Translations under genes and position numbers: made by a program
Notes under the pieces: model-generated
The model's database searches: none
What the model was told of the DNA's origin: nothing
What the model saw: the letters and a program-made list of their open reading frames with translations, nothing else
From: Oxobacter pfennigii
GTDB lineage: Bacteria; Bacillota; Clostridia; Clostridiales; Oxobacteraceae
Direction of reading: 5' to 3'
Assembly (NCBI RefSeq): GCF_001317355.1
Contig: NZ_LKET01000039.1
Coordinates: 350,574-414,573 of the forward strand
DNA length: 64,000 nucleotides
Part shown: in pieces, positions 1 through 64,000 of the stretch
Numbering within the stretch: the stretch's first letter is position 1
How the letters are laid out: each line of letters starts with the position of its first letter

Positions 1-743
1 CTACATTGGAAGTATTCATGCCTGACGGCAGGCAGGTTAAAGCAGCTTATGTGGGCGGTGACTGGAGAACCGACCTTGCTGTTATTAAAGTGGATTTAAA
101 GGATCTTCCCGTAGCCGAACTTGGGGATTCTTCCGCTCTCGAAGTTGGTGAGCAGGCAGTAGCAATTGGCAATCCATTAGGTATGGAATTTGCCGGTTCT
201 GTCACCGCCGGAGTTATAAGTGCCTTAAACAGAAAGGTTGAAATGGAAGATAAAACCCTGAATCTCATCCAGACGGATGCAGCCATAAATCCCGGAAACA
301 GCGGCGGCGCTCTTGTAAATTCCAAGGGGCAGGTAATAGGTATTAATACAGTTAAAATATCCGTAACCGGCGTTGAAGGACTTGGTTTTGCAATACCAAT
401 GAATGATGCCAAACCAATCATTGAACAATTAAAGATGTTCGGTTATGTAAAAGGAAGACCCTTCATAGGTATATCCGGTGAAGAAGTAACAGAAGTTATA
501 TCTAAGCAGTATGGCCTGCCGGTTGGCGTCTATGTGCTTGGGGTAACCGCCGGAAGCGGAGCACAGAGTGCCGGAATACAAAAAGGCGATATAATCGTCA
601 GCTTAGGCGGCAAGGAAGTTAAAACCATGAAGGATATTGACAACATCAAAAAGAGCTATAAAGCCGGTGATACCGTTGACGCTGTAATCGTCAGAAACAA
701 TGTAAACATGAATATAAAAATAACTTTCACAGAAGAGAAATAG
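1..743 (+). CDS. HtrA/DegP-family serine protease, C-terminal portion (5-prime end lies outside the window)
   Basis: Reading frame is open to the window edge. It carries the GNSGGAL catalytic-serine motif followed by a PDZ-like domain (GISGEEVTEV...GDIIVSLGG). Confidence 0.8.
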   Translation, partial: TLEVFMPDGRQVKAAYVGGDWRTDLAVIKVDLKDLPVAELGDSSALEVGEQAVAIGNPLGMEFAGSVTAGVISALNRKVEMEDKTLNLIQTDAAINPGNSGGALVNSKGQVIGINTVKISVTGVEGLGFAIPMNDAKPIIEQLKMFGYVKGRPFIGISGEEVTEVISKQYGLPVGVYVLGVTAGSGAQSAGIQKGDIIVSLGGKEVKTMKDIDNIKKSYKAGDTVDAVIVRNNVNMNIKITFTEEK

Positions 744-789
744 AAATTTTCCTTCACACAAGAGGGGACGCAACTCAGAATGCAGAACG

Positions 790-813
790 GGGACACAACT
801 TTAGTTGTGTCCC
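790..813. repeat. REP-like perfect palindrome GGGACACAAC-TTTA-GTTGTGTCCC, copy 1, 47 nt after the htrA stop
   Basis: 10-11 bp perfect inverted repeat. The same sequence recurs at 53183-53207 and 63973-64000. A half-site-like GGGGACGCAACT sits at 763-774. Confidence 0.7.
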
Positions 814-844
814 TCTCCTCTTTTCCCCTTTCCTTTTGTAATCA

Positions 845-1030
845 GTTACCACTTAGCACTATCATATTTAATATGATTCTATTCACTGCTACTCGACTTA
901 GAAGCTGTAAACTCGGCTTCGGGCTGCACCATAAATGTTATTGCTCAAACAATGGCGCAGCTATTCTACGCCTCGTTAACAGCTTTTCTACAGCCACTTC
1001 GCAATGTTCCTTTCATCATATCAAATATCA
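845..1030 (-). repeat. Dispersed intergenic element family A, copy in minus orientation
   Basis: The reverse complement (GATATGATGAAAGGAACATTGCGAAGTGGCTGTAGAAAAGCTGTTAACGAGGC...GAGTTTACAGCTTCTAAGT) aligns to the copies at 18895, 53738 and 58214. Confidence 0.55.
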
Positions 1031-1143
1031 TTACTTTATGAATTGTTATGCATATTTGGTAACTGATTACAAAGAAGTTTATAATCCTTGTACCACTCTT
1101 GTATAATCTTTGGCCGTATTTCATAATAGTATTAGAGTTATAA

Positions 1144-7127: not shown

Positions 7128-7595
7128 TCAGGGTTTATGCCGGCTTATTCCATTTCCATCAGTACCGGTATCTATCTTGGTAACCTTAGGCAATTTTAAA
7201 ACAAGCAGCCCATTATTATAAGATGAAATAATTTTATCTACAGATATTTTATCAATCATAAAGGATCTGTTATATATATTTGACATGTAGCTTAAGCTCT
7301 GGGCATAATTATTTGAAAATATGTTCTGAGTTTTTTTATATGCGGACACGGTAAGTATATTTCCTTTATATTCTATACGTACATCATCTCTTTCAAAGCC
7401 CGAAAGCTTCACGAAAACTGTATAATCACAGTCCTGTTCCACCATCCAGGCATCAAAATAAAGCCTTGGGGAAGCAGGATATGAAATATTAGAAATAGCA
7501 TTTAAAAGGAGGCCGAACCCATCTAATATATCGCCTGGCGAAGTTTTATTATGCTTGCTTGCAGCTGTATGCTTATGCCGGTTATGTCTGGACAT
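7128..7595 (-). CDS. Hsp20/alpha-crystallin family small heat-shock protein
   Basis: Alpha-crystallin domain (DWMVEQDCDYTVFVKLSGFERDDVRIEYKGNILTVSA...LLVLKLPK). GAGGTGA RBS precedes the ATG at 7595. The longer ORF extending to 7898 has no support. Confidence 0.8.
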   Translation of the reverse strand: MSRHNRHKHTAASKHNKTSPGDILDGFGLLLNAISNISYPASPRLYFDAWMVEQDCDYTVFVKLSGFERDDVRIEYKGNILTVSAYKKTQNIFSNNYAQSLSYMSNIYNRSFMIDKISVDKIISSYNNGLLVLKLPKVTKIDTGTDGNGISRHKP

Positions 7596-7982: not shown

Positions 7983-8029
7983 ATATAACAATAATAAACT
8001 AACATCAGTGATCAGGAAGAGTAGATACA

Positions 8030-8332
8030 TTAACTGAGTCCCAGCGATTCCGGGGCAGTGAAAGCCGGATACTTAAGCGTGTATTGAATGGACCTGTAAG
8101 ATGGCGTGCGAAAGTTATGGTAGCATAGCCCGGGAGTCAGCCGTTACAATGAACAGGGTATCGAGGAATCCGTACCTTAGAAGAGCGTTTTATATTTTGG
8201 TGGCATAGCGAAATTCAGCATTTCGTCCTTAATGGATGAAATGCTTTTTTAATATAAAACAAAAATGGGTGGCACCACGAGTCACTTCGTCCCATATTCA
8301 GACGAAGTGGCTCTTTTTATTTGGTCCAGATT
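8030..8332 (+). promoter_or_regulatory. T-box riboswitch leader (probably Trp-specific) with intrinsic terminator
   Basis: T-box motif AAAUGGGUGGCACCACGAG at 8271-8291. Terminator CACTTCGTC/GACGAAGTG plus a U-tract at 8293-8332. Candidate specifier GAAUGGA at about 8113. It sits upstream of trpEGDCFBA. Confidence 0.7.
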
Positions 8333-8464
8333 TTTGAACTCAGGAACACTAGTGTAACTGTAATATGTGCTTGGCTGCAAGGCAGAAGAATATTCAGAGG
8401 GTAGTACTAATGTACCGATGGTCATTTGACTGCAAAGAAGCGACAAGCGAGCTTTTAAGGAAAG

Positions 8465-8660
8465 GAGCTGTTGCATTTGAAACAACGTAAATGAGCATTG
8501 TGAGAGTTCTCTCTAAAGTTCTTGGTGACTCTGCCAAAGATATTACTTAGAATTTTAGATTGTTTGAGCGAATGAAGTTTAAAAATTCTTGTATTTTCAA
8601 GGCAGGAAACCTTAGAACTTGCGGAAGTCGAACACAGCGAATTGAGTGTTCAAAATGCAA
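8465..8660 (+). repeat. Dispersed element family B, copy 1 (inverted relative to the copy at 53228-53420)
   Basis: About 85-90 percent nucleotide identity to the reverse complement of 53228-53420. It lies between the T-box terminator and trpE. Confidence 0.55.
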
Positions 8661-8823
8661 CAGCCCCAATTTATGGCGGGGGCGGCCGTTAAAATCAGGA
8701 AGATTTTCGACCGGAAAGCTTTTTGCAATCAGATGACAGAGAAAAGGTACTAAGCCCCGGAGCAGTTCGTTTGCCTGCAGCAAACACAAAATAAATATTG
8801 AAATTTTATGGAGGTGAGTGTTT

Positions 8824-18806: not shown

Positions 18807-18894
18807 CTATAAAATTAAGTATTTAACTGGATGATACAGAGACAGGTCAGGAGAAGGTTTTTACATTTCAATTGATATGCATTTTGATATACAA

Positions 18895-19082
18895 GATTGA
18901 TATGATGACTAAACATTGCGAAAGGACTGTAGAAGCTGTTAATGAAGCAAGGATAGCTGCTCCGTTGTTTGGGCGTAAGTGAGTTATGGCGATAAGTTGG
19001 AGACATTCCTCAACAAAGAAGGAGTGCCCCCATTCCTTGAACAGCCGAATCTACAGATTCTAAGTACTGTAGACGTGAATGG
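18895..19082 (+). repeat. Dispersed element family A, long copy
   Basis: GATTGATATGATGACTAAACATTGCGAAAGGACTGTAGAAGCTGTTAATGAAGC ... GAGACATTCCTCAACAAAGAAGGAGTGCCCCC ... CTAAGTACTGTAG. Confidence 0.55.
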
Positions 19083-19118
19083 AGTTATATCAAACCTGCA
19101 AATAAAAGGGGTGATTAT

Positions 19119-22630: not shown

Positions 22631-22734
22631 CTGAAATTATAAAAATACAATCTATACTTGTAAGAGACACCATTTAATAATATAATTATATATAGAATGG
22701 AATTGAGTTCTCATAAAAATAAATAAAATTGTCA

Positions 22735-22972
22735 GGTACATGCATGTATAATAGGGAAAGCGGTGAAAATCCGCTGCAGCCCCCGCTACTGTATACGGCG
22801 ACGAAACCTAATTCCACTGGCGTTATCGCTGGGAAGGAAGGTGGAGAAAGACCCGTTAGCCAGGAGACCTGCCTGAGATTAAAAGTCCTTCGGAGGGAAG
22901 GTAACACCTATGCTATTTTTTGGCACATGGATTTTATTACTAAGCCCTCGCTTGAAGTGAGGGCTTTTAATT
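22735..22972 (+). promoter_or_regulatory. cobalamin (AdoCbl) riboswitch with intrinsic terminator
   Basis: GGTGAAAATCCGCTGCAGCCCCCGCTACTGTA ... GTTAGCCAGGAGACCTGCC conserved blocks. Terminator AAGCCCTCGCTTGAAGTGAGGGCTTTT at 22942-22968. Confidence 0.8.
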
Positions 22973-23157
22973 GCATAAAATTATACATATATCCCTGACA
23001 TTAAAGTGCCAGGGATTGTTTTTTGCATAAGTTTTGGAAACTTCTCTGACTGCTTGAATGAAGACAGGGACACTTTTAAAGGATGTCCCAACTAAGAATA
23101 TCCTAAAAGAAGAAGAGTGCATATAAAATCATAAAAAAGTAAAAAAGGAGAGGTAAT

Positions 23158-28771: not shown

Positions 28772-30050
28772 TCTTGAGATTATAAAGGAGTCCCAAAAAT
28801 ATATGCCGGGAGGAGTTAACAGTCCGGTAAGGGCTTTTAAGGATGTAACTATAAACCCGGCGGTTATTAAAAGGGGACAGGGCGCCTATGTGTTCGATGA
28901 AGAGGGCAATCAATATACCGATTATGTATGTGCCTGGGGACCTATGATTTTGGGCCATTGCGACGAGGATATTGTGGCAGCTATAAAGGATACGAGTGAA
29001 AATGCCATCGCCTTTGGAGCGCCTACATATTTGGAATTAAAGCTAGCCGAGCATATGTGCAGCACCTTGGATGGCGTGGATATGCTAAGGATGGTCAACT
29101 CGGGCACAGAAGCCACCATGAGTGCTATTAAACTGGCAAGAGGCTATACGGGAAGAGACAGGATTATAAAATTTGCAGGGTGCTATCATGGTCATTTTGA
29201 CGGATTTTTGGTCAGTGCAGGCTCAGGGGTTATGACTGAAGGCATTCCGGGAAGCGCAGGAGTTCCTGAGCTAAGTATAAAGAACACTTTGATAGCTTCA
29301 TATAATGATATAGAAAGCGTCAAATTGCTGTTCGAAAATTACAGTGATGAAATTGCGGCTATTATTATTGAGCCGGTAGCCGGGAATATGGGTGTAGTGG
29401 CGGCAGATAAGGAATTTTTATCAGGTGTAAGGGATCTTTGCGATAAATACGGGAGCCTTTTGATATTTGACGAGGTAATGTCGGGATTCAGGGTGGCATA
29501 TAAAGGAGCTATGAGTTTATACGGCATTAAGCCTGATTTAGTCACCTTTGCTAAAATAATGGGCGGCGGTCTTCCCTGCGGTGCATATGGCGGCAGAAGA
29601 GACATAATGGAGAAACTATCCCCTCTTGGGCCGGTGTATCAGGCAGGCACCATGTCAGGAAACCCAATCGTCATGGCGGCAGGATATGCAACTTTGACCA
29701 AGCTATATAACAACCTTGATTATTATAGTCACCTGGAAAGTTTGGGTGCAAGGCTGGAGACGGGCATAAGAGAAGCGGCAGCAGAAATGGGACTTCCTGT
29801 GGTAATCAACCGTGTTGGGGCAATGATGACAATATTTTTTACCGAGCTTAATGAAGTTAAAAATTATGAGGATGCCAAGACCTGTGATACAAAACTTTAT
29901 GCCAAATACTTTGAGCACATGTTCAAAAACGGCATCAACATACCACCCTCCCAATTCGAAGCCTTGTTTATATCAGTAAAACACACTGGAGAGGACATCG
30001 ACTACTTCATCAAAACCTTCAAAAAGCTGGGGGACAGTTCATTCCGTTGA
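28764..30050 (+). CDS. hemL: glutamate-1-semialdehyde 2,1-aminomutase
   Basis: Class-III aminotransferase with the HemL N-terminus. 428 aa. Confidence 0.9.
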
Positions 30051-30162
30051 TTCTTTTTCACAAGTTCATAAGGGGACGGTTCAACCTGTTATATCATATA
30101 GTATAATAATGCCACTTTTGGTTAAACTAACAATACAATAGTAACTAAAGGTGGTGTTTTCT

Positions 30163-31077
30163 ATGCCAAGATGTGCCAGAGAAAAAAGTTTGGACAGCGT
30201 ATATCACGTAATGGTCCGCAGTATTGCCGAAATTAATTTGTTTACAGACCACGCTGACAAAGACGTATATATGAGGCTTTTAAAAAGATATAAGGATATT
30301 TATCTGTTTAAGGTTTATGGCTTTTGTCTCATGGAAACTCACGGACATATAATAATCGACGTACAGGGTGCTGACATATCAAGGATAATGCACGGAGTGA
30401 ATCAAAGCTATGCCTGGTATTACAACCATAGGCACAAACGTCATGGTCACTTGTTTCAGGACAGGTTCAAAAGCAAAATCGTATCAGATGACAGGTACCT
30501 TATAACTTTATCAGCATACATACATAATAATACTCAAGATATTGAAGGTTACGAAAACCAGGTAGAAAAATATGAATACTCAAGCTTAGGAATATATTTA
30601 GGCAGCATGGAAAATAAATATGGCCTGGTGGACAAAGAGTTTATATTAAGCCAGATAAGCTATAATACTGCTATTGCAAAGAAGCAGTACCTTGAATTGG
30701 TATATAGAGATAACCCGGATATAATTCCCGATGATGCAGAGTTTAAAAATGAAAAGGCACAATACAGATCCGAGAGAAAAGTAATCGTAAGAAGCTTCAG
30801 ACCGGATGAAGTGGTGAGCTTTGTTGAAAACTATATAAAGCAGTATAATACAAACATCAGTATAAAGTATACCAAGAAAAATATTGAGGCTAAGGCATTA
30901 TCAGTATTGCTTTTACGAGGGATATGTGATATGAAGCAGAAGGATATATGTGCCTTTATGGGAAACATAACCCAGTCTCACTCGGCAAAGCTGTGTGCCA
31001 GGGGTATAGATTTGTTGCAGCGGAAAAAGGAGTATATGAATATAGCCAAGGATTTCATACGAAGAAAAGCCGGATAA
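30163..31077 (+). CDS. RAYT/IS200-like HUH Y1 transposase-domain protein with a DnaA-C-like HTH C-terminus (probably domesticated)
   Basis: N-terminus MPRCAREKSLDSVYHVMVR, HuH motif METHGHIIID and catalytic Tyr block SAYIHNN. The C-terminal 70 aa resemble DnaA domain IV. AAAGGTGGTG RBS. Confidence 0.7.
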   Translation: MPRCAREKSLDSVYHVMVRSIAEINLFTDHADKDVYMRLLKRYKDIYLFKVYGFCLMETHGHIIIDVQGADISRIMHGVNQSYAWYYNHRHKRHGHLFQDRFKSKIVSDDRYLITLSAYIHNNTQDIEGYENQVEKYEYSSLGIYLGSMENKYGLVDKEFILSQISYNTAIAKKQYLELVYRDNPDIIPDDAEFKNEKAQYRSERKVIVRSFRPDEVVSFVENYIKQYNTNISIKYTKKNIEAKALSVLLLRGICDMKQKDICAFMGNITQSHSAKLCARGIDLLQRKKEYMNIAKDFIRRKAG

Positions 31078-31240: not shown

Positions 31241-31297
31241 AGGGACGGTTCATGCCAAACTGTTGTTCTAAAACTCAAATTATGATGAACCGTCCCT
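31241..31297. repeat. 13-bp-stem hairpin AGGGACGGTTCAT...ATGAACCGTCCCT between convergent RAYT-like and floT genes (REP-like / bidirectional terminator)
   Basis: Perfect 13-bp inverted repeat. It shares the GGGACGGTTCA motif with 30073-30083 and with the 33571-33745 array. Confidence 0.6.
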
Positions 31298-33349: not shown

Positions 33350-33570
33350 AATATCCCCCCTTAAAAGAAGCAGCTAATTTATTATGCTAAGAAAGCGAAC
33401 ATATTTATTATGATAGAAGGTATTAAAGAAAATGATCTTAAATATGGTTTTGTGCAGGCCCCTATTTAATTATAATCATAAAAGGTGAGTCCAGTCCACA
33501 AAATCAGCACAATTTAAAAGCAGATTTGCCCACGTCTACTTGATATAAATATTTTAAAGAGAAAGTAGGA

Positions 33571-33745
33571 TGAGCCGTCCCGTATTTTGTCAAAGAAAAA
33601 ATAGAATGAACCGTCCCTGTTGTTATGAACCGTATTTTGTCAAAGAAAAAATAGAATGAACCGTCCCTGTTGTTATGAACCGTCCCTGTTGTTACTGCTG
33701 TTGTTAAAAGAAAAAGTGGAGTGAACCGTCCCCTATTGTTATAAT
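33571..33745. repeat. tandem direct repeats (about 50-bp unit x 2.5, then a degenerate copy) containing 5 copies of the (A/G)TGAACCGTCCC / ATGAACCGT motif
   Basis: Unit GAACCGTATTTTGTCAAAGAAAAAATAGAATGAACCGTCCCTGTTGTTAT repeated. It lies in the divergent intergenic region of nfeD-floT and the NUDIX gene. Confidence 0.7.
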
Positions 33746-34477: not shown

Positions 34478-34690
34478 GCCAATGAATCTTCAGGGCAGGG
34501 TGAGCAATTGAATACTTACGTATTATTTTGCATTTCCCGACCGGCGGTACAGCCCGCGAGCTTTTAATTAAGCAGATCCGGTTTAATTCCGGAGCCGACA
34601 GTAAAGTCTGGATGAAAGAAGGTTGTGTTTACCTTGTATTTTTCTCCTGAAGTTCTTCAGGAGCTTTTTATTTTTCAGGATTTTTTTCTT
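34478..34690 (+). promoter_or_regulatory. FMN riboswitch (RFN element) with intrinsic terminator
   Basis: CTTCAGGGCAGGGTGA...TTCCCGACCGGCGGTA...AGCCCGCGAGC...CCGGAGCCGACAGTAAAGTCTGGATG conserved blocks. Terminator CTCCTGAAGTTCTTCAGGAG plus a U-tract. Confidence 0.8.
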
Positions 34691-39577: not shown

Positions 39578-39653
39578 AGGGGCATGGCTCAATTGGTAGA
39601 GTAGTGGTCTCCAAAACCATTGGTTGTGGGTTCGAGTCCTACTGCCCCTGCCA
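39578..39653 (+). tRNA. trnW: tRNA-Trp (CCA anticodon)
   Basis: AGGGGCATGGCTCAATTGGTAGAGTAGTGGTCTCCAAAACCATTGGTTGTGGGTTCGAGTCCTACTGCCCCTGCCA. Canonical cloverleaf, anticodon loop CUCCAAA. Confidence 0.9.
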
Positions 39654-47509: not shown

Positions 47510-47617
47510 AACTTGTAAATAAATTATTAAACAAGTATTGATTTTTAATGTCAGTTATTATAGAATAATAACAGCAATAGCAAAGGTGAACGTTTTTAAT
47601 AAAACTGAATATAAAGT

Positions 47618-47790
47618 TCGCCCGTATATACCCGGTAATATGGTCCGGGTGTTTCTACCAGACTGCCGCAAATTGTCTGACTATGGGTGTTTGTAAGCAT
47701 AATGCATAAAATGTTCAGATTTATTTCGTGTTGCTACATACAATATTTGCTTGTAAACTCCCTTATTTTTCATAAGGGAGTTTTATCTTT
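47618..47790 (+). promoter_or_regulatory. purine riboswitch, guanine-specific (C at the specificity position), with intrinsic terminator
   Basis: CCCGUAUAUACCCGGUAAUAUGGUCCGGGUGUUUCUACCAGACUGCCGCAAAUUGUCUGACUAUGGG. Terminator AAACTCCCTTA...TAAGGGAGTTTT at 47755-47790. Confidence 0.8.
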
Positions 47791-52238: not shown

Positions 52239-53174
52239 ATGGATTATATAGCATCCTTTTTTGCCGCAGCAATTGTGGCAGGCACTCCTCTTTTATTTGC
52301 TACCTTAGGTGAGATAATAACCGAAAAAGCAGGCCTTACTAACTTAGGTGTTGAAGGTATGATGCTCATGGGAGCCGTAGGCGGCTTTCAGGCCGGGCTT
52401 TTAACCCAGAACCCGGTTATCGCAATTTTATCAGGAGCCCTTGGCGGAATGATAGGAGCATTGATATTTGCATTTTTGACCATAGAGCTTCGCGTAAACC
52501 AGATTGTTTGCGGACTGGCGCTCAGTATATTCGGTGAGGGCTTTGCAAGCTACATGGGTAAAATTCTGGGGGGGAAAATGGTACCTCAGGCCCTTAAGGC
52601 ATATTTCATGCCCTATAAAATACCACTTTTAGGTGATATCCCATTCCTGGGAAGAATTTTCTTCAGCCAGGATCCTTACATCTATTTAGGATATATAATA
52701 GCAATACTATTAGGGCTATATCTTTACAAAACCCGGCCCGGCTTAACTTTGCGCTCCATCGGCGAAAACCCCGGAGCAGCCGACGCCGCGGGAATTAATA
52801 TATCAAGATATAAATACATTCACACACTTTTAGGCGGTGCCTTATCAGGGTTAGGCGGTGCTTACCTCTCCTTGGTATACGTTCCTGCATGGCAGGAAGG
52901 CATAACGGCAGGAAGAGGCTGGATAGCCGTAGCCCTGGTTATATTTGCAACCTGGAACCCTTACAAAGCAATTTTAGGCTCTTACCTTTTCGGCGGCTTA
53001 GACATCATAGGCTTCAGATTGCAGGGCACAAAATTTGCAGTATCCCAGTACCTTATCGATATGCTTCCCTACATGGTAACCATATCCGTACTGGTTTTCG
53101 TTTCACTGAAAAAATCAAAGGACAACTCCCCTCCCGCGGCCTTGGGAACCCCTTACTTCCGCGAAGAGAGGTAA
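52239..53174 (+). CDS. ABC transporter permease (NupQ-like)
   Basis: Polytopic, coupled to the upstream permease. Confidence 0.8.
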   Translation: MDYIASFFAAAIVAGTPLLFATLGEIITEKAGLTNLGVEGMMLMGAVGGFQAGLLTQNPVIAILSGALGGMIGALIFAFLTIELRVNQIVCGLALSIFGEGFASYMGKILGGKMVPQALKAYFMPYKIPLLGDIPFLGRIFFSQDPYIYLGYIIAILLGLYLYKTRPGLTLRSIGENPGAADAAGINISRYKYIHTLLGGALSGLGGAYLSLVYVPAWQEGITAGRGWIAVALVIFATWNPYKAILGSYLFGGLDIIGFRLQGTKFAVSQYLIDMLPYMVTISVLVFVSLKKSKDNSPPAALGTPYFREER

Positions 53175-53182
53175 CAAATTTG

Positions 53183-53207
53183 GGGATACAACTTTAGTTG
53201 TGTCTCC
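53183..53207. repeat. REP-like hairpin copy 2 (GGGGATACAACTTTAGTTGTGTCTCC), 9 nt after the permease stop
   Basis: Same palindrome as 790-813. Its two substitutions keep pairing as G-U wobbles only in the + strand transcript. Confidence 0.65.
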
Positions 53208-53227
53208 TTACACTTTTACGCTGAATT

Positions 53228-53420
53228 TTGAACACCCCTCTCGTTGTGTTCCAGTTCTGAAAGTTCTAAGGCTCCCTGCCTTGAAAATGCAAGAATTTTT
53301 AAACTTCCTTCCGCTCAGACAATCTAAAATTCTAAGCAATATCTTTGGCAGCGTCGCCAAGAACTTTCAAAGAACTCTCACAATGCTATGGCGTTGTTCA
53401 AAATTCAGCGTCCTAAAATG
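53228..53420 (-). repeat. Dispersed element family B, copy 2 (inverted relative to 8465-8660)
   Basis: The reverse complement aligns to 8465-8660 at about 85-90 percent identity. Confidence 0.55.
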
Positions 53421-53737
53421 TACATCTACAGCCTCTGACTATATTAACAGCAGTCAGGGGCTATTTACGTTGTATTCCTTTCCATATACAAGTTTGCTAC
53501 TTTGGATATAATTGAATATAATAAATACTGATATCATTTCAAGCTTTTGACTGTATTAATTGCCATCTAAACGGAATTGTGTAGAATCTATATAGAACAA
53601 GCAAATGAAAATTGCTATGATATCAGTAAAGACGGAGTTATAGCGGAATGTTCATGTGGCTGTTAACCTCTATACTTGGGTTAGAGTGTAAATGATGTTT
53701 GTTTATAAATAAAAGAATCTTTAAAGTTGAGATGGCG

Positions 53738-54068
53738 TGATATGATGAATGGACATTGCGAAAGGACTGTAGAAGCTGTTAACGAAGCGGAGGAAAGCTG
53801 GAGTCATTATATGAGTGATAGAGATGTTTATAAGAAAGATTAAAATAATCTGACTTTATAATTTATGTAACTTCTGCCTTCATTTGCAAAGCTGGAAATA
53901 ACAAAGCTGGAAATAATAGCGTAAAGGCCGTGTTTCTGTTAGCGAAGTACATGAAGCATAAGTCATTGTCTGAGCGATAGCGTATAAATTGAGGACATTC
54001 CTCAATAAAAAGAGGAGTGTCCCCTAACCTTAAACATACGAGTTTTACAGACACTAGGAATTAGAGCG
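53738..54068 (+). repeat. Dispersed element family A, long mosaic copy
   Basis: GTGATATGATGAATGGACATTGCGAAAGGACTGTAGAAGCTGTTAACGAAGC ... ATAAGTCATTGTCTGAGCGATAGCG ... GAGGACATTCCTCAATAAAAAGAGGAGTGTCCCC ... GAGTTTTACAGACACTAGGA. It shares 5-prime and 3-prime blocks with 18895 and 58214. Confidence 0.55.
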
Positions 54069-54116
54069 TAATTGACGGCTTAAAAATGAAAACAGAGGGG
54101 TAAGGAGAGAACTAAA

Positions 54117-58149: not shown

Positions 58150-58213
58150 ACTGCTTAGAAAAAATAAGCTTATCAAACTTAGGGGATTAAGTACAAACTA
58201 ATGTACCAGCAGA

Positions 58214-58437
58214 TATGATGAACAAAACATTGCGCAGTGACTGCAGAGGCTGTTAACGAGGTAATTTTGCATAGTCTATTAGTAACGAAGACTAGTAGAT
58301 GTGATAGTAAGCCAAAAGAGATAGCGGAATGTCCGTGTGCCTGTTAACGAAGGACAGGCAACATAAGTCATTGTTTGAGCGATAGCGAGTTATGACTTAT
58401 GTCCTGGCCGAGTTTTACAGACACTAGGACATGCAGC
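58214..58437 (+). repeat. Dispersed element family A, long copy
   Basis: AGATATGATGAACAAAACATTGCGCAGTGACTGCAGAGGCTGTTAACGAGG ... ATAGCGGAATGTCCGTGTGCCTGTTAAC ... ATAAGTCATTGTTTGAGCGATAGCG ... GAGTTTTACAGACACTAGGA. Confidence 0.55.
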
Positions 58438-58466
58438 GTTCTGAAGGTTTACTATCAATCGCATTG

Positions 58467-63415: not shown

Positions 63416-63922
63416 ATGAAAAAGTGGAAATGCGGAGTTTGTGGTTATGTTCATACAGGAGCAGCTGCCCCTGATAAATGTCCGGTATGCGGAGTACCCG
63501 GATCAAAATTTGCTGAAATTACAGGTGAAGAGGGTAAATCCTTAAAAGACTATGTAAACGCCCAGATTGAAGGTGAAACCTGGGAAGTAACACATTACTT
63601 AGCAGCAGCCCTTTTGGCCGATAAATTGGGATATGCAAATGTAGCAGAAACTTTCAGGACCATAGCAATGGAAGAAGCATACCATGGAGCAAATTACCTT
63701 TACAGAAGCGGTGAAATCGGAAAGACCAAGGAAGATCTTAAGGAATTCGTGGCCAAAATGATTGAAGCGGAAAAAGGTGCTCATAAGATGAAGACAGAAG
63801 GGTTCTCCCTTGCGTTGTCAGAAGGGCAGGACGAATTGGCAGCATTCTTCAAAATCTCAGCAGAAGATGAAGCAAGACATGCAAGCATGTGGTCCTGGGC
63901 ATATAAAGAACTGGAAAAATAA
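63416..63922 (+). CDS. reverse rubrerythrin (N-terminal rubredoxin-like, C-terminal diiron ferritin-like domain)
   Basis: CGVCGY...CPVCG rubredoxin motif at the N-terminus, then E..H diiron ligands. Confidence 0.85.
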   Translation: MKKWKCGVCGYVHTGAAAPDKCPVCGVPGSKFAEITGEEGKSLKDYVNAQIEGETWEVTHYLAAALLADKLGYANVAETFRTIAMEEAYHGANYLYRSGEIGKTKEDLKEFVAKMIEAEKGAHKMKTEGFSLALSEGQDELAAFFKISAEDEARHASMWSWAYKELEK

Positions 63923-63972
63923 AATATAAAAATAGTGTTTGTTCATCTATACTCTCTCCTTAACTTATAAAC

Positions 63973-64000
63973 CGGGACACAACTTTAGTTGTGTCCCGGT
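63973..64000. repeat. REP-like hairpin copy 3 (CCGGGACACAACTTTAGTTGTGTCCCGG), 50 nt after the rubrerythrin stop, at the window edge
   Basis: 12-bp perfect stem, same core as 790-813. Confidence 0.65.

What the first reader, a model, noticed from the sequence alone, without database searches (positions are those of the whole stretch)
790..813. Perfect palindrome GGGACACAACTTTAGTTGTGTCCC reused three times immediately downstream of stop codons
The copies are at 790-813 after htrA, 53183-53207 after the permease and 63973-64000 after rubrerythrin. All three sit 9-50 nt after a + strand stop codon and none has the usual U-tract.

Copy 2 carries two substitutions (GGGATACAAC/GTTGTGTCTC) that destroy DNA-level palindromy but keep RNA pairing via G-U wobbles on the + strand transcript. 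That argues for selection on an RNA hairpin, as a terminator or mRNA 3-prime stabiliser.

A half-site-like GGGGACGCAACT lies just upstream of copy 1 (763-774). The core also resembles the GAGTGTCCCC block inside family-A elements, hinting at a shared origin. This is REP-like behaviour, and a RAYT-like gene is present in the same window.
Basis: partly seen in the sequence, partly recalled or inferred. Interest (0 to 1): 0.6.

Follow-up and report, generated by a model that had tools for sequence, protein, structure and literature searches.

The report
Repeated terminator-like hairpin after stop codons
A 24-base stem-loop recurs, almost letter for letter, just after the ends of unrelated housekeeping genes in Oxobacter pfennigii and one other clostridial lineage; it most likely acts as a transcript-end hairpin, and no link to the transposase-like gene nearby was found.

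Summary
GGGACACAAC-TTTA-GTTGTGTCCC occurs at 790-813, 53183-53206 and 63974-63997, with none expected by chance. Each copy lies 8-51 nt after a + strand stop codon. It is a 10-13 bp hairpin with an asymmetric loop, not a true palindrome.

The window is Oxobacter pfennigii. Public scans found the same hairpin in only one other lineage, a 31% GC Clostridiaceae MAG with 7 sites. Six of those sites have a readable upstream gene, and all six hairpins lie 0-32 nt after its same-strand stop.

All stem changes are G-U wobbles or compensatory on the sense strand. An extra flanking base pair covaries. Close relatives carry ordinary, unrelated terminators at the two orthologous positions checked.

The best reading is a small dispersed palindromic repeat that forms a terminator or 3'-protective hairpin on the mRNA.

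The RAYT link is not supported. The RAYT-like gene (30151-31077) fits the described TIRYT class. Its own repeat, GGGGACRGTTCAY, flanks it here and in four homologous loci. It shares only the GGGGAC head (GGGGACA in relatives) with the hairpin.

Copy number in the source genome could not be measured. How the hairpin spreads, and why its sequence is so strictly conserved, remain unexplained.

The parts
789..814 (+). Hairpin copy 1. The core is 790-813, GGGACACAAC-TTTA-GTTGTGTCCC. A G-U 11th pair joins 789 and 814. It starts 46 nt after the htrA-like stop (741-743).
   Evidence: -18.3 kcal/mol, z -4.7
815..838 (+). T/C-rich tail of copy 1 (CTCCTCTTTTCCCCTTTCCTTTTG). It could serve as an imperfect U-tract. 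It is also the reverse complement of the RBS-like 3' end of a family A element lying on the - strand.
763..774 (+). 5'-arm-like half-site GGGGACGCAACT, ending 15 nt upstream of copy 1. It could pair with the 3' arm as an alternative.
53182..53207 (+). Hairpin copy 2. The core is 53183-53206, GGGATACAAC-TTTA-GTTGTGTCTC. It has two C->T changes, giving U-G and G-U pairs on the + strand only. It starts 8 nt after the permease stop.
   Evidence: + strand -15.7, - strand -7.8 kcal/mol
53208..53222 (+). Tail of copy 2 (TTACACTTTTACGCT). It resembles the tail TTCATWTTAR conserved in the other lineage.
63971..64000 (+). Hairpin copy 3. The core is 63974-63997, and flanking ACC/GGT extend the stem to 13 bp. 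The core starts 51 nt after the rubrerythrin stop. The tail is cut off by the end of the window.
   Evidence: -23.8 kcal/mol
30151..31077 (+). Context, not shown to be linked to the hairpin: a RAYT-like (TIRYT-type) Y1 transposase gene. It has an HGH motif, YIHNN, and a C-terminal tail read by eye as DnaA-C/HTH-like (PF08299 is precomputed for some homologs).
   Evidence: PMC6006769, PMC3733652
30072..30084 (+). Context: GGGGACGGTTCAA, the upstream copy of the transposase gene's own flanking motif. Further copies are at 30031 (+), 31242 (+), 31296 (-) and five on the - strand at 33581-33732.

Best explanation
The hairpin is a member of a small family of dispersed extragenic palindromic repeats. 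The conserved unit is a 24-nt stem-loop followed by a loosely conserved T-rich tail of about 12 nt.

It sits at the 3' ends of unrelated housekeeping genes. It acts on the sense transcript as a stable stem-loop of 10-13 bp (-16 to -24 kcal/mol). There it most likely serves as the hairpin of a possibly factor-assisted intrinsic terminator, as a block to 3'-exonucleases, or both.

Shown: recurrence, position, orientation, strand-specific pairing, and occupation of the terminator slot.

Inferred: that transcripts actually end or are stabilised there, and that the copies arose by DNA-level copying rather than by convergence. The copying mechanism is unknown.
For: 1. Three copies in 64 kb against 0 expected. 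The covariance model finds no diverged copies, so the family is sharply defined.

2. Scans of 185,579 species genomes and 241 million metagenome records find the TTTA-loop hairpin as a repeat in only one other lineage. That lineage is Clostridiaceae MAG SMAG_U7854 and matching contigs, at 31% GC against 40.5% for the window. It has 7 distinct sites.

3. At 9 of 9 sites with a readable upstream gene, the TTTA strand is the sense strand of that gene and the hairpin starts 0-51 nt after its stop. The genes are htrA, an ABC permease and rubrerythrin in the window. In the other lineage they are ftsZ, lysS, fba, a mannose-6-P isomerase, glnN-type GS and a 141-aa ORF.

4. Stem variation is 3 C->T changes giving G-U or U-G on the sense strand, plus one G-C to A-U double change. 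No change is disruptive, although the scan pattern admitted every transition at the five outer pairs.

5. The base pair just outside the conserved 24-mer pairs in 8 of 10 copies, using 5 different pair types. About 37% would be expected by chance, so p is roughly 0.008 by my binomial estimate.

6. At the orthologous positions after the permease and rubrerythrin genes, relatives at 79-84% amino-acid identity carry unrelated hairpins with T-rich tails. Three look like standard terminators and the L082 one is a longer palindrome. The repeat therefore occupies the terminator slot.

7. Copy 1 is the top-ranked + strand terminator-like site in its 20 kb.

8. At site S3 the hairpin follows the orientation of its gene, although most neighbouring genes and the local GC skew point the other way. 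This favours transcription over replication as the reference frame.
Against: - No transcript data exist.
- Copy 2 and, by my count of the printed tails, about half of the copies in the other lineage fail a simple U-tract rule (for copy 2; sequences).
- A generic terminator does not need 24 invariant bases, including the loop. The tail has diverged by about 30% while the hairpin has barely changed. That points to sequence-specific recognition or very recent copying, and this explanation does not account for it.
- G-T pairs are also tolerated in single-stranded DNA hairpins. In the window the + strand is both the sense strand and the lagging-strand template. The strand asymmetry therefore does not by itself separate RNA from ssDNA.
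- Only 10 sites are known.
Confidence: 0.5

Rival explanations
1. It is a DNA-level element: a head-to-head dimer of a short terminal-inverted-repeat motif (GGGGACACAAC, 4 nt, GTTGTGTCCCC). It is recognised as a single-stranded DNA hairpin and copied by a TIRYT or RAYT-type Y1 (HUH) transposase. Any terminator effect would be a by-product, as proposed for REP and TIR repeat families.
For: - A TIRYT-type gene lies in the window, and O. pfennigii has a second paralog, P0123.
- Published TIRs of TIRYT genes share the head GGGGWSAS and occur as singles, dimers or clusters (PMC3733652; PMC6006769). Copy 1 reads GGGGACAC, which fits that consensus.
- The gene's own downstream repeat pair, GGGACGGTTCAT-31 nt-ATGAACCGTCCC (31242-31297), has the same outward GGGAC...GTCCC geometry as the hairpin.
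- Extra arm-like pieces lie beside several copies: 765-774 in the window, and a partial tandem copy at L066 632-649.
- Hairpins with the same foot occur in relatives, one of them about 60 nt from a TIR cluster.
- Near-identity of all 24 nt across two genera is easier to explain by copying than by selection for a terminator.
Against: - The motif flanking this TIRYT family is GGGGACRGTTCAY in 5 of 5 loci from at least four organisms. It shares only GGGGAC, or GGGGACA in relatives, with the hairpin arm.
- The outermost G of GGGG is not conserved. Only 3 of 10 copies have it.
- No TIRYT gene or GGGGACRGTTCA motif was seen in the roughly 160 kb of loci held from the other lineage, which overlap one another.
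- TIRYT homologs are widespread in Clostridia (746 hits), yet the hairpin repeat was found in only two lineages.
- There is no GTAG or CGTC tag and there are no inverted doublets.
Confidence: 0.25
2. It is a sequence-specific RNA (or DNA) binding site for a dedicated protein shared by the two lineages. The hairpin's primary sequence, not only its shape, would then be under purifying selection. An example would be a factor that controls 3'-end formation or decay of a small regulon.
For: - The loop and 8 of the 10 core stem pairs (8 of 11 counted) are invariant in 9 aligned copies from two genomes of very different GC content. The adjacent spacer dinucleotide and both flanks vary freely.
- Copy number is low in the other lineage, at 7 sites.
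- Orientation is fixed relative to the gene.
Against: - The upstream genes have no evident common function.
- No candidate binding protein was identified.
- Nothing matches in Rfam.
Confidence: 0.15
3. It is a double-stranded DNA operator: a 10-4-10 palindrome bound by a dimeric regulator.
For: It is a near-perfect inverted repeat of a length suitable for a dimeric helix-turn-helix protein.
Against: - The asymmetric loop has the same orientation relative to the upstream gene at all 9 sites where that gene can be read.
- Copy 2 breaks DNA symmetry at two positions but keeps pairing on one strand.
- The sites lie at gene ends, several of them between convergent genes, not at promoters.
- The flanking pair covaries.
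Confidence: 0.04

Closest known systems
Intrinsic (Rho-independent) transcription terminators
   Same: A G+C-containing stem of 10-13 bp with a 4-nt loop, directly after a stop codon on the sense strand. A T-rich stretch follows. Relatives have ordinary terminators in the same slot.
   Different: The same 24 nt are reused at many unrelated genes and in two genera. The T-tract is interrupted or displaced. Copy 2 and about half of the copies in the other lineage fail a simple U-tract rule.
REP / REPIN elements with RAYT transposases (E. coli, Pseudomonas; Nunvar 2010 PMC2817692; Bertels 2017 PMC5581495)
   Same: A short extragenic palindrome dispersed at 3' ends of genes, with G-T pairs on one strand. 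A Y1 transposase-like gene is present in the genome.
   Different: There is no GTAG or CGTC tag and there are no inverted doublets. The hairpin does not flank the Y1 gene. Only 5-7 copies were found in the one lineage where it could be counted, against more than 100 for typical REPs.
TIRtrons / TIRYT-associated TIR repeat families (Di Nocera 2013 PMC3733652; subclass 2.1 of Quentin 2018 PMC6006769)
   Same: The window's Y1 gene fits this class: about 305 aa, with a tail read as DnaA-C/HTH-like and flanking inverted repeats that start GGGGAC. The hairpin arm of copy 1 (GGGGACAC) fits the published head consensus GGGGWSAS. TIR repeats are reported as singles, dimers and clusters.
   Different: The TIR of this gene family is GGGGACRGTTCAY, not GGGACACAAC. 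The hairpin was not found next to any TIRYT gene.
Uptake-sequence pairs that form terminators (Neisseria DUS, Haemophilus USS; from general knowledge)
   Same: A fixed 10-mer occurs as an inverted pair that makes a terminator hairpin after genes and is shared between related species.
   Different: Single half-sites are not over-represented across the window. Apart from the three hairpins there are only 3 one-mismatch hits, 2 of them next to a hairpin. Density is far below one per kb.

Membership tests
Intrinsic terminator | Stable stem-loop (5-14 bp, loop 3-8 nt) on the sense transcript downstream of the stop codon | tested here: met
   stems of 10-13 bp, -15.7 to -23.8 kcal/mol, 8-51 nt after the stops
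Intrinsic terminator | U-tract immediately 3' of the stem | tested here: inconclusive
   Copy 1 passes the scan. Copy 2 fails it, with TTTT at +8 to +11. The tail of copy 3 lies outside the window. The tail consensus in the other lineage is nnTTCATWTTAR.
Intrinsic terminator | Transcript 3' ends map to the tract after the stem | not testable with these tools
   No RNA data are available.
REP / REPIN-RAYT | Conserved GTAG or CGTC tetranucleotide at one end of the palindrome | tested here: not met
   The 5' flanks are variable (GAACG, ATTTG, AAACC, AATTT ...) and no tag is present. The feature is as defined in PMC3733652.
REP / REPIN-RAYT | Copies of the repeat flank the RAYT gene | tested here: not met
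   The gene at 30151-31077 is flanked by GGGGACGGTTCA(A/T), not by the hairpin.
REP / REPIN-RAYT | High copy number (typically >100 per genome), often as inverted doublets or BIMEs | tested here: inconclusive
   There are 3 copies per 64 kb in the window, but the rest of the O. pfennigii genome could not be retrieved. The other lineage has only 5 (MAG) to 7 sites. None of the 10 sites is a doublet.
TIRtron / TIRYT TIR repeats | A TIRYT gene (Y1_Tnp with extra C-terminal HTH) in the genome | tested here: met
   Y1_Tnp E=1.8e-13. The match to REP_Tyr_transpos is below its cutoff. Length is 304-308 aa. PF08299 (Bac_DnaA_C) is precomputed for some homologs. The class is described in PMC6006769.
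TIRtron / TIRYT TIR repeats | The repeat has the sequence of the TIRs that flank the TIRYT gene | tested here: not met
   The TIR is GGGGACRGTTCAY in the window and in L084, L086, L093 and L094. The hairpin arm is GGGACACAAC.
TIRtron / TIRYT TIR repeats | Head motif GGGGWSAS | tested here: inconclusive
   Copy 1 (GGGGACAC) fits. Copy 2 and S6 read GGGGATAC. The other copies lack the first G.

The most novel reading that the evidence does not exclude
The hairpin, the hairpin module of family A, and the TIRs of the TIRYT gene all start with GGGGAC. They could be three substrates of one domesticated Y1 (TIRYT) system. That system would install ready-made terminator hairpins at gene ends and keep them uniform, a transposase-derived mechanism that writes 3'-end signals. 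This would explain the letter-perfect conservation across two genera.
Probability: 0.12. Interest if true: 0.7.

Novelty: new member of a known kind. Interest (0 to 1): 0.38.

Why it matters
If the reading is right, the hairpin marks operon ends in O. pfennigii, an acetogen of biotechnological interest. It is also a compact, portable candidate terminator for clostridial genetic tools.

The more interesting open point is why 24 bases, loop included, stay identical at unrelated genes in two genera. That implies either an unknown copying mechanism for very short palindromes in Firmicutes or a sequence-specific binding factor.

The survey also assigns a clear cognate repeat, GGGGACRGTTCAY, to the widespread clostridial TIRYT family. 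A published phylogenomic survey reported finding no REP-like sequences near genes of that class (PMC6006769, section 20).

Tried and rejected
- Rfam, at gathering and permissive thresholds: nothing at the hairpin or at repeat families A and B.
- Phage and plasmid collections (blastn) and IMG/VR: no match, or two non-palindromic coding-sequence hits.
- Retrieving more of the O. pfennigii genome for a genome-wide count: exact look-ups of four of its proteins returned nothing, and the genome scan did not return the window's own copies.
- Covariance-model search for diverged copies in the window, the other lineage and relatives: nothing beyond the known copies, except a weak related hairpin in L089.
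- DNA-uptake-sequence idea: rejected, because half-sites are not spread through the window.
- SECIS or recoding idea: rejected, because the stops are TAG, TAA and TAA and the distances are variable.
- dsDNA operator: rejected on loop orientation and on the asymmetry of copy 2.
- Excess of arm-like 7-mers beside the hairpins: 4 of 10 sites against about 0.4 expected (my estimate from the background rate). The one beside copy 2 turned out to be part of the conserved family B sequence, so the excess is weaker than it first looked.
- Other hairpins returned by the genome scan (other loops, other taxa) are single-copy per genome and were treated as unrelated hairpins.

Full report
**What is there**

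The 24-mer GGGACACAACTTTAGTTGTGTCCC occurs at 790-813 and 63974-63997. A two-substitution variant, GGGATACAACTTTAGTTGTGTCTC, occurs at 53183-53206. No match is expected by chance.

It is a 10-bp inverted repeat around the loop TTTA, which is not self-complementary. The element therefore has a direction, and all three copies point the same way. Flanking bases extend the stems to 11, 11 and 13 bp. Predicted RNA stabilities are -18.3, -15.7 and -23.8 kcal/mol, with z-scores of -4.5 to -7.7.

The upstream genes are an HtrA-like protease (6..743), the last permease of a Bmp-type ABC transporter (52239..53174) and a rubrerythrin (63416..63922). The gaps to the hairpin are 46, 8 and 51 nt.

Both substitutions in copy 2 are C->T and give U-G and G-U pairs on the + strand. 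The - strand RNA folds no better than shuffled sequence. A covariance model built from the copies finds no diverged members elsewhere in the window.

**Where else it occurs**

The window is Oxobacter pfennigii: its permease, Y1 protein and rubrerythrin match that species at 100%. More of that genome could not be retrieved.

I scanned one genome per species (185,579 species) with a pattern that left the loop free and allowed R/Y at two pairs. It returned 61 loci. Only one genome carries the TTTA-loop hairpin repeatedly: the MAG 'Clostridiaceae bacterium SMAG_U7854', with 5 loci at 31% GC against 40.5% for the window.

It recovered that organism in three samples, giving 7 distinct sites, plus a few unrelated hairpins. 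Phage, plasmid and viral collections gave nothing relevant. Apart from the hairpin, the two lineages share no DNA.

**Anatomy across the 10 sites**

- *Position and orientation.* In the second lineage the hairpin lies 0-32 nt after the stop of ftsZ, lysS, a class II aldolase, a mannose-6-phosphate isomerase, a type III glutamine synthetase and a 141-aa ORF. It is always on the sense strand. The seventh site is at a contig end, so its upstream gene cannot be read.
- *Conservation.* The loop and 8 of the 11 pairs counted never vary.
- *Variation.* The changes seen are C->T at position 5 (twice, once in each genome) and C->T at position 23. One copy, GAGACACAAC...GTTGTGTCTC, has a compensatory G-C to A-U change. 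All keep pairing on the sense strand.
- *Flanking pair.* The pair just outside the conserved 24-mer pairs in 8 of 10 copies, with five different pair types. About 37% would pair by chance.
- *Tail.* A variable dinucleotide follows the stem, then a loosely conserved T-rich tail: TTCATWTTAR in the second lineage, TCCTCTTTTC and TACACTTTTA in the window.

**Function**

Relatives of O. pfennigii have the same gene order, with 79-84% identical proteins. At the same position after the permease and rubrerythrin genes they carry unrelated hairpins with T-rich tails. L080, L089 and L091 look like standard terminators, and L082 has a longer palindrome. The repeat therefore sits in the terminator slot.

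Copy 1 is the best + strand terminator-like site in its 20 kb. Copy 2 fails the U-tract rule.

The + strand of the window is both the sense strand and the lagging-strand template (GC skew +0.11). The strand asymmetry alone therefore cannot separate an RNA hairpin from a single-stranded DNA hairpin. At site S3 the hairpin follows its gene although the neighbouring genes and the local skew point the other way. That is weak evidence, from one site, for transcription as the frame of reference.

My best explanation, at about 0.5, is a dispersed palindromic repeat that works as a terminator or 3'-protective hairpin on the mRNA. Two things stay unexplained: how the hairpin spreads, and why the primary sequence is so much better conserved than its tail.

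**The RAYT question**

The RAYT-like gene is 30151..31077. It matches Y1_Tnp at E=1.8e-13 and NCBIfam REP_Tyr_transpos below its cutoff. It has HGH and YIHNN motifs and, by eye, a DnaA-C-like tail.

It fits the class described as TIRYT, or subclass 2.1. The terminal inverted repeats of that class share the head GGGGWSAS (PMC3733652; PMC6006769, section 20). The family is widespread in Clostridia, with 746 hits and about 50% identity between genera.

In the window the gene is flanked by GGGGACGGTTCA(A/T) at 30072, 31242 (+) and 31296 (-). A near-copy lies at 30031, and five more lie at 33581-33732. Four homologous loci from other organisms are flanked by clusters of the same motif, GGGGAC(A/G)GTTCAY, direct upstream and inverted downstream.

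This motif, not the TTTA hairpin, is therefore the gene's cognate repeat. The hairpin also lacks a GTAG or CGTC tag, forms no doublets, and is low-copy where it could be counted. Membership in REP/RAYT fails on the features that could be tested.

**What keeps a DNA-level reading alive (about 0.25)**

- Copy 1 reads GGGGACAC, which fits GGGGWSAS.
- The gene's downstream repeat pair has the same outward GGGAC...GTCCC geometry as the hairpin.
- The hairpin module of repeat family A (53990-54023 and about 19000-19032) shares the ...GTGTCCCC end plus tail.
- A relative has a stand-alone hairpin of that type directly after a stop codon (L089).
- Another hairpin, GGGGACACACC...GGTGTGTCC, lies about 60 nt from a TIR cluster (L094).
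- One site in the second lineage carries a partial tandem duplication of the hairpin.

These are leads, not tests.

**Verdict**

The feature is real and non-random. The REP/RAYT link is not supported.

It is a new sequence family of a known kind: dispersed extragenic palindromes at gene ends. Interest is moderate. The unusual aspect is letter-perfect conservation across two genera with no identified agent.

Noticed in passing
window 30031-30084, 31242-31297, 33570-33732; also L084 5700-5930 and 7110-7125, L086 5913 and 7143-7175, L093 2789-2880 and 4075-4117, L094 243-480, 2785-2840 and 5030-5126: The 12-13 nt motif GGGGACRGTTCAY flanks the TIRYT-type Y1 transposase gene in O. pfennigii and in 4 of 4 homologous loci from other Clostridia. 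It occurs as clusters of direct copies upstream and inverted copies downstream. In the window a separate array of five copies sits just upstream of a NUDIX gene (33767). A published survey found no REP-like sequences near genes of this subclass, so this conserved cognate repeat may be worth its own look.
   Followed up: partly
window 18885-19118 (+), 53713-54116 (+), 58200-58466 (+), 814-1050 (-): Repeat 'family A' is modular. It has a conserved 5' block, GATATGATGA-N5-ACATTGCG-AAGGACTGTAGAAGCTGTTAACGAAGC, and a conserved 3' block, CCGAGTTTTACAG..CTAAG, with variable inserts between them. Two copies run straight into the RBS and start codon of real genes (Pyridox_ox 19119, tsaD 54117). Two copies are orphans. 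There is no Rfam match. It could be a leader or regulatory RNA, or a mobile element; this is unresolved.
   Followed up: partly
window 53218-53412 (+) and 8472-8670 (-): Repeat 'family B' has a core that is 85% identical over 189 nt. The inverted repeats of about 17-20 nt that bracket it differ between the two copies (ACGCTGAATTTT... against GGGGCTGTTGCATTT...) but stay complementary within each copy. Either the element inserts into the loops of pre-existing hairpins, or it is a structured RNA with a covarying closing stem.
   Followed up: partly
window 8298-8817: About 520 nt separate the T-box leader (7999-8297) from the start of the anthranilate synthase gene (8818). Part of the gap is filled by the family B copy in reverse orientation.
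   Followed up: no
L066 588-670 (the same site as L008 and L079): In the second lineage, the hairpin after the aldolase gene is followed by a partial second copy (CAACTTTAGTTGTGTCCC), and a neighbouring 27-nt segment is duplicated. This looks like slippage or rearrangement at the repeat.
   Followed up: partly
L089 about 5004-4950 (- strand); L094 5186-5235: Relatives of O. pfennigii carry hairpins with the same foot but different tops. One is GGGGATACTCCTC...AGGAGTGTCCCC followed by TTACCATTAAT, directly after a stop codon. The other is GGGGACACACCTCC...GGAAGGTGTGTCC followed by TTTTCATG, about 60 nt from a TIR cluster. Together they suggest a wider hairpin superfamily with a conserved foot.
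   Followed up: partly
window 23067-23089: An imperfect hairpin, GGGACACTTTTAAAGGATGTCCC, has the same GGGACA foot. It lies between the cobalamin riboswitch (22717-22890) and cbiX (23158) and may be part of the riboswitch expression platform.
   Followed up: no
window 7999-8297, 22717-22890, 34482-34627, 47602-47703, 39578-39650: Standard RNA elements are present: a T-box leader, cobalamin, FMN and purine riboswitches, and one tRNA.
   Followed up: no
P0123 (O. pfennigii, on a 3,042-bp contig): A second TIRYT paralog, 60% identical, sits on a very short contig of the draft genome. This hints that its flanks are repeats that break the assembly.
   Followed up: no
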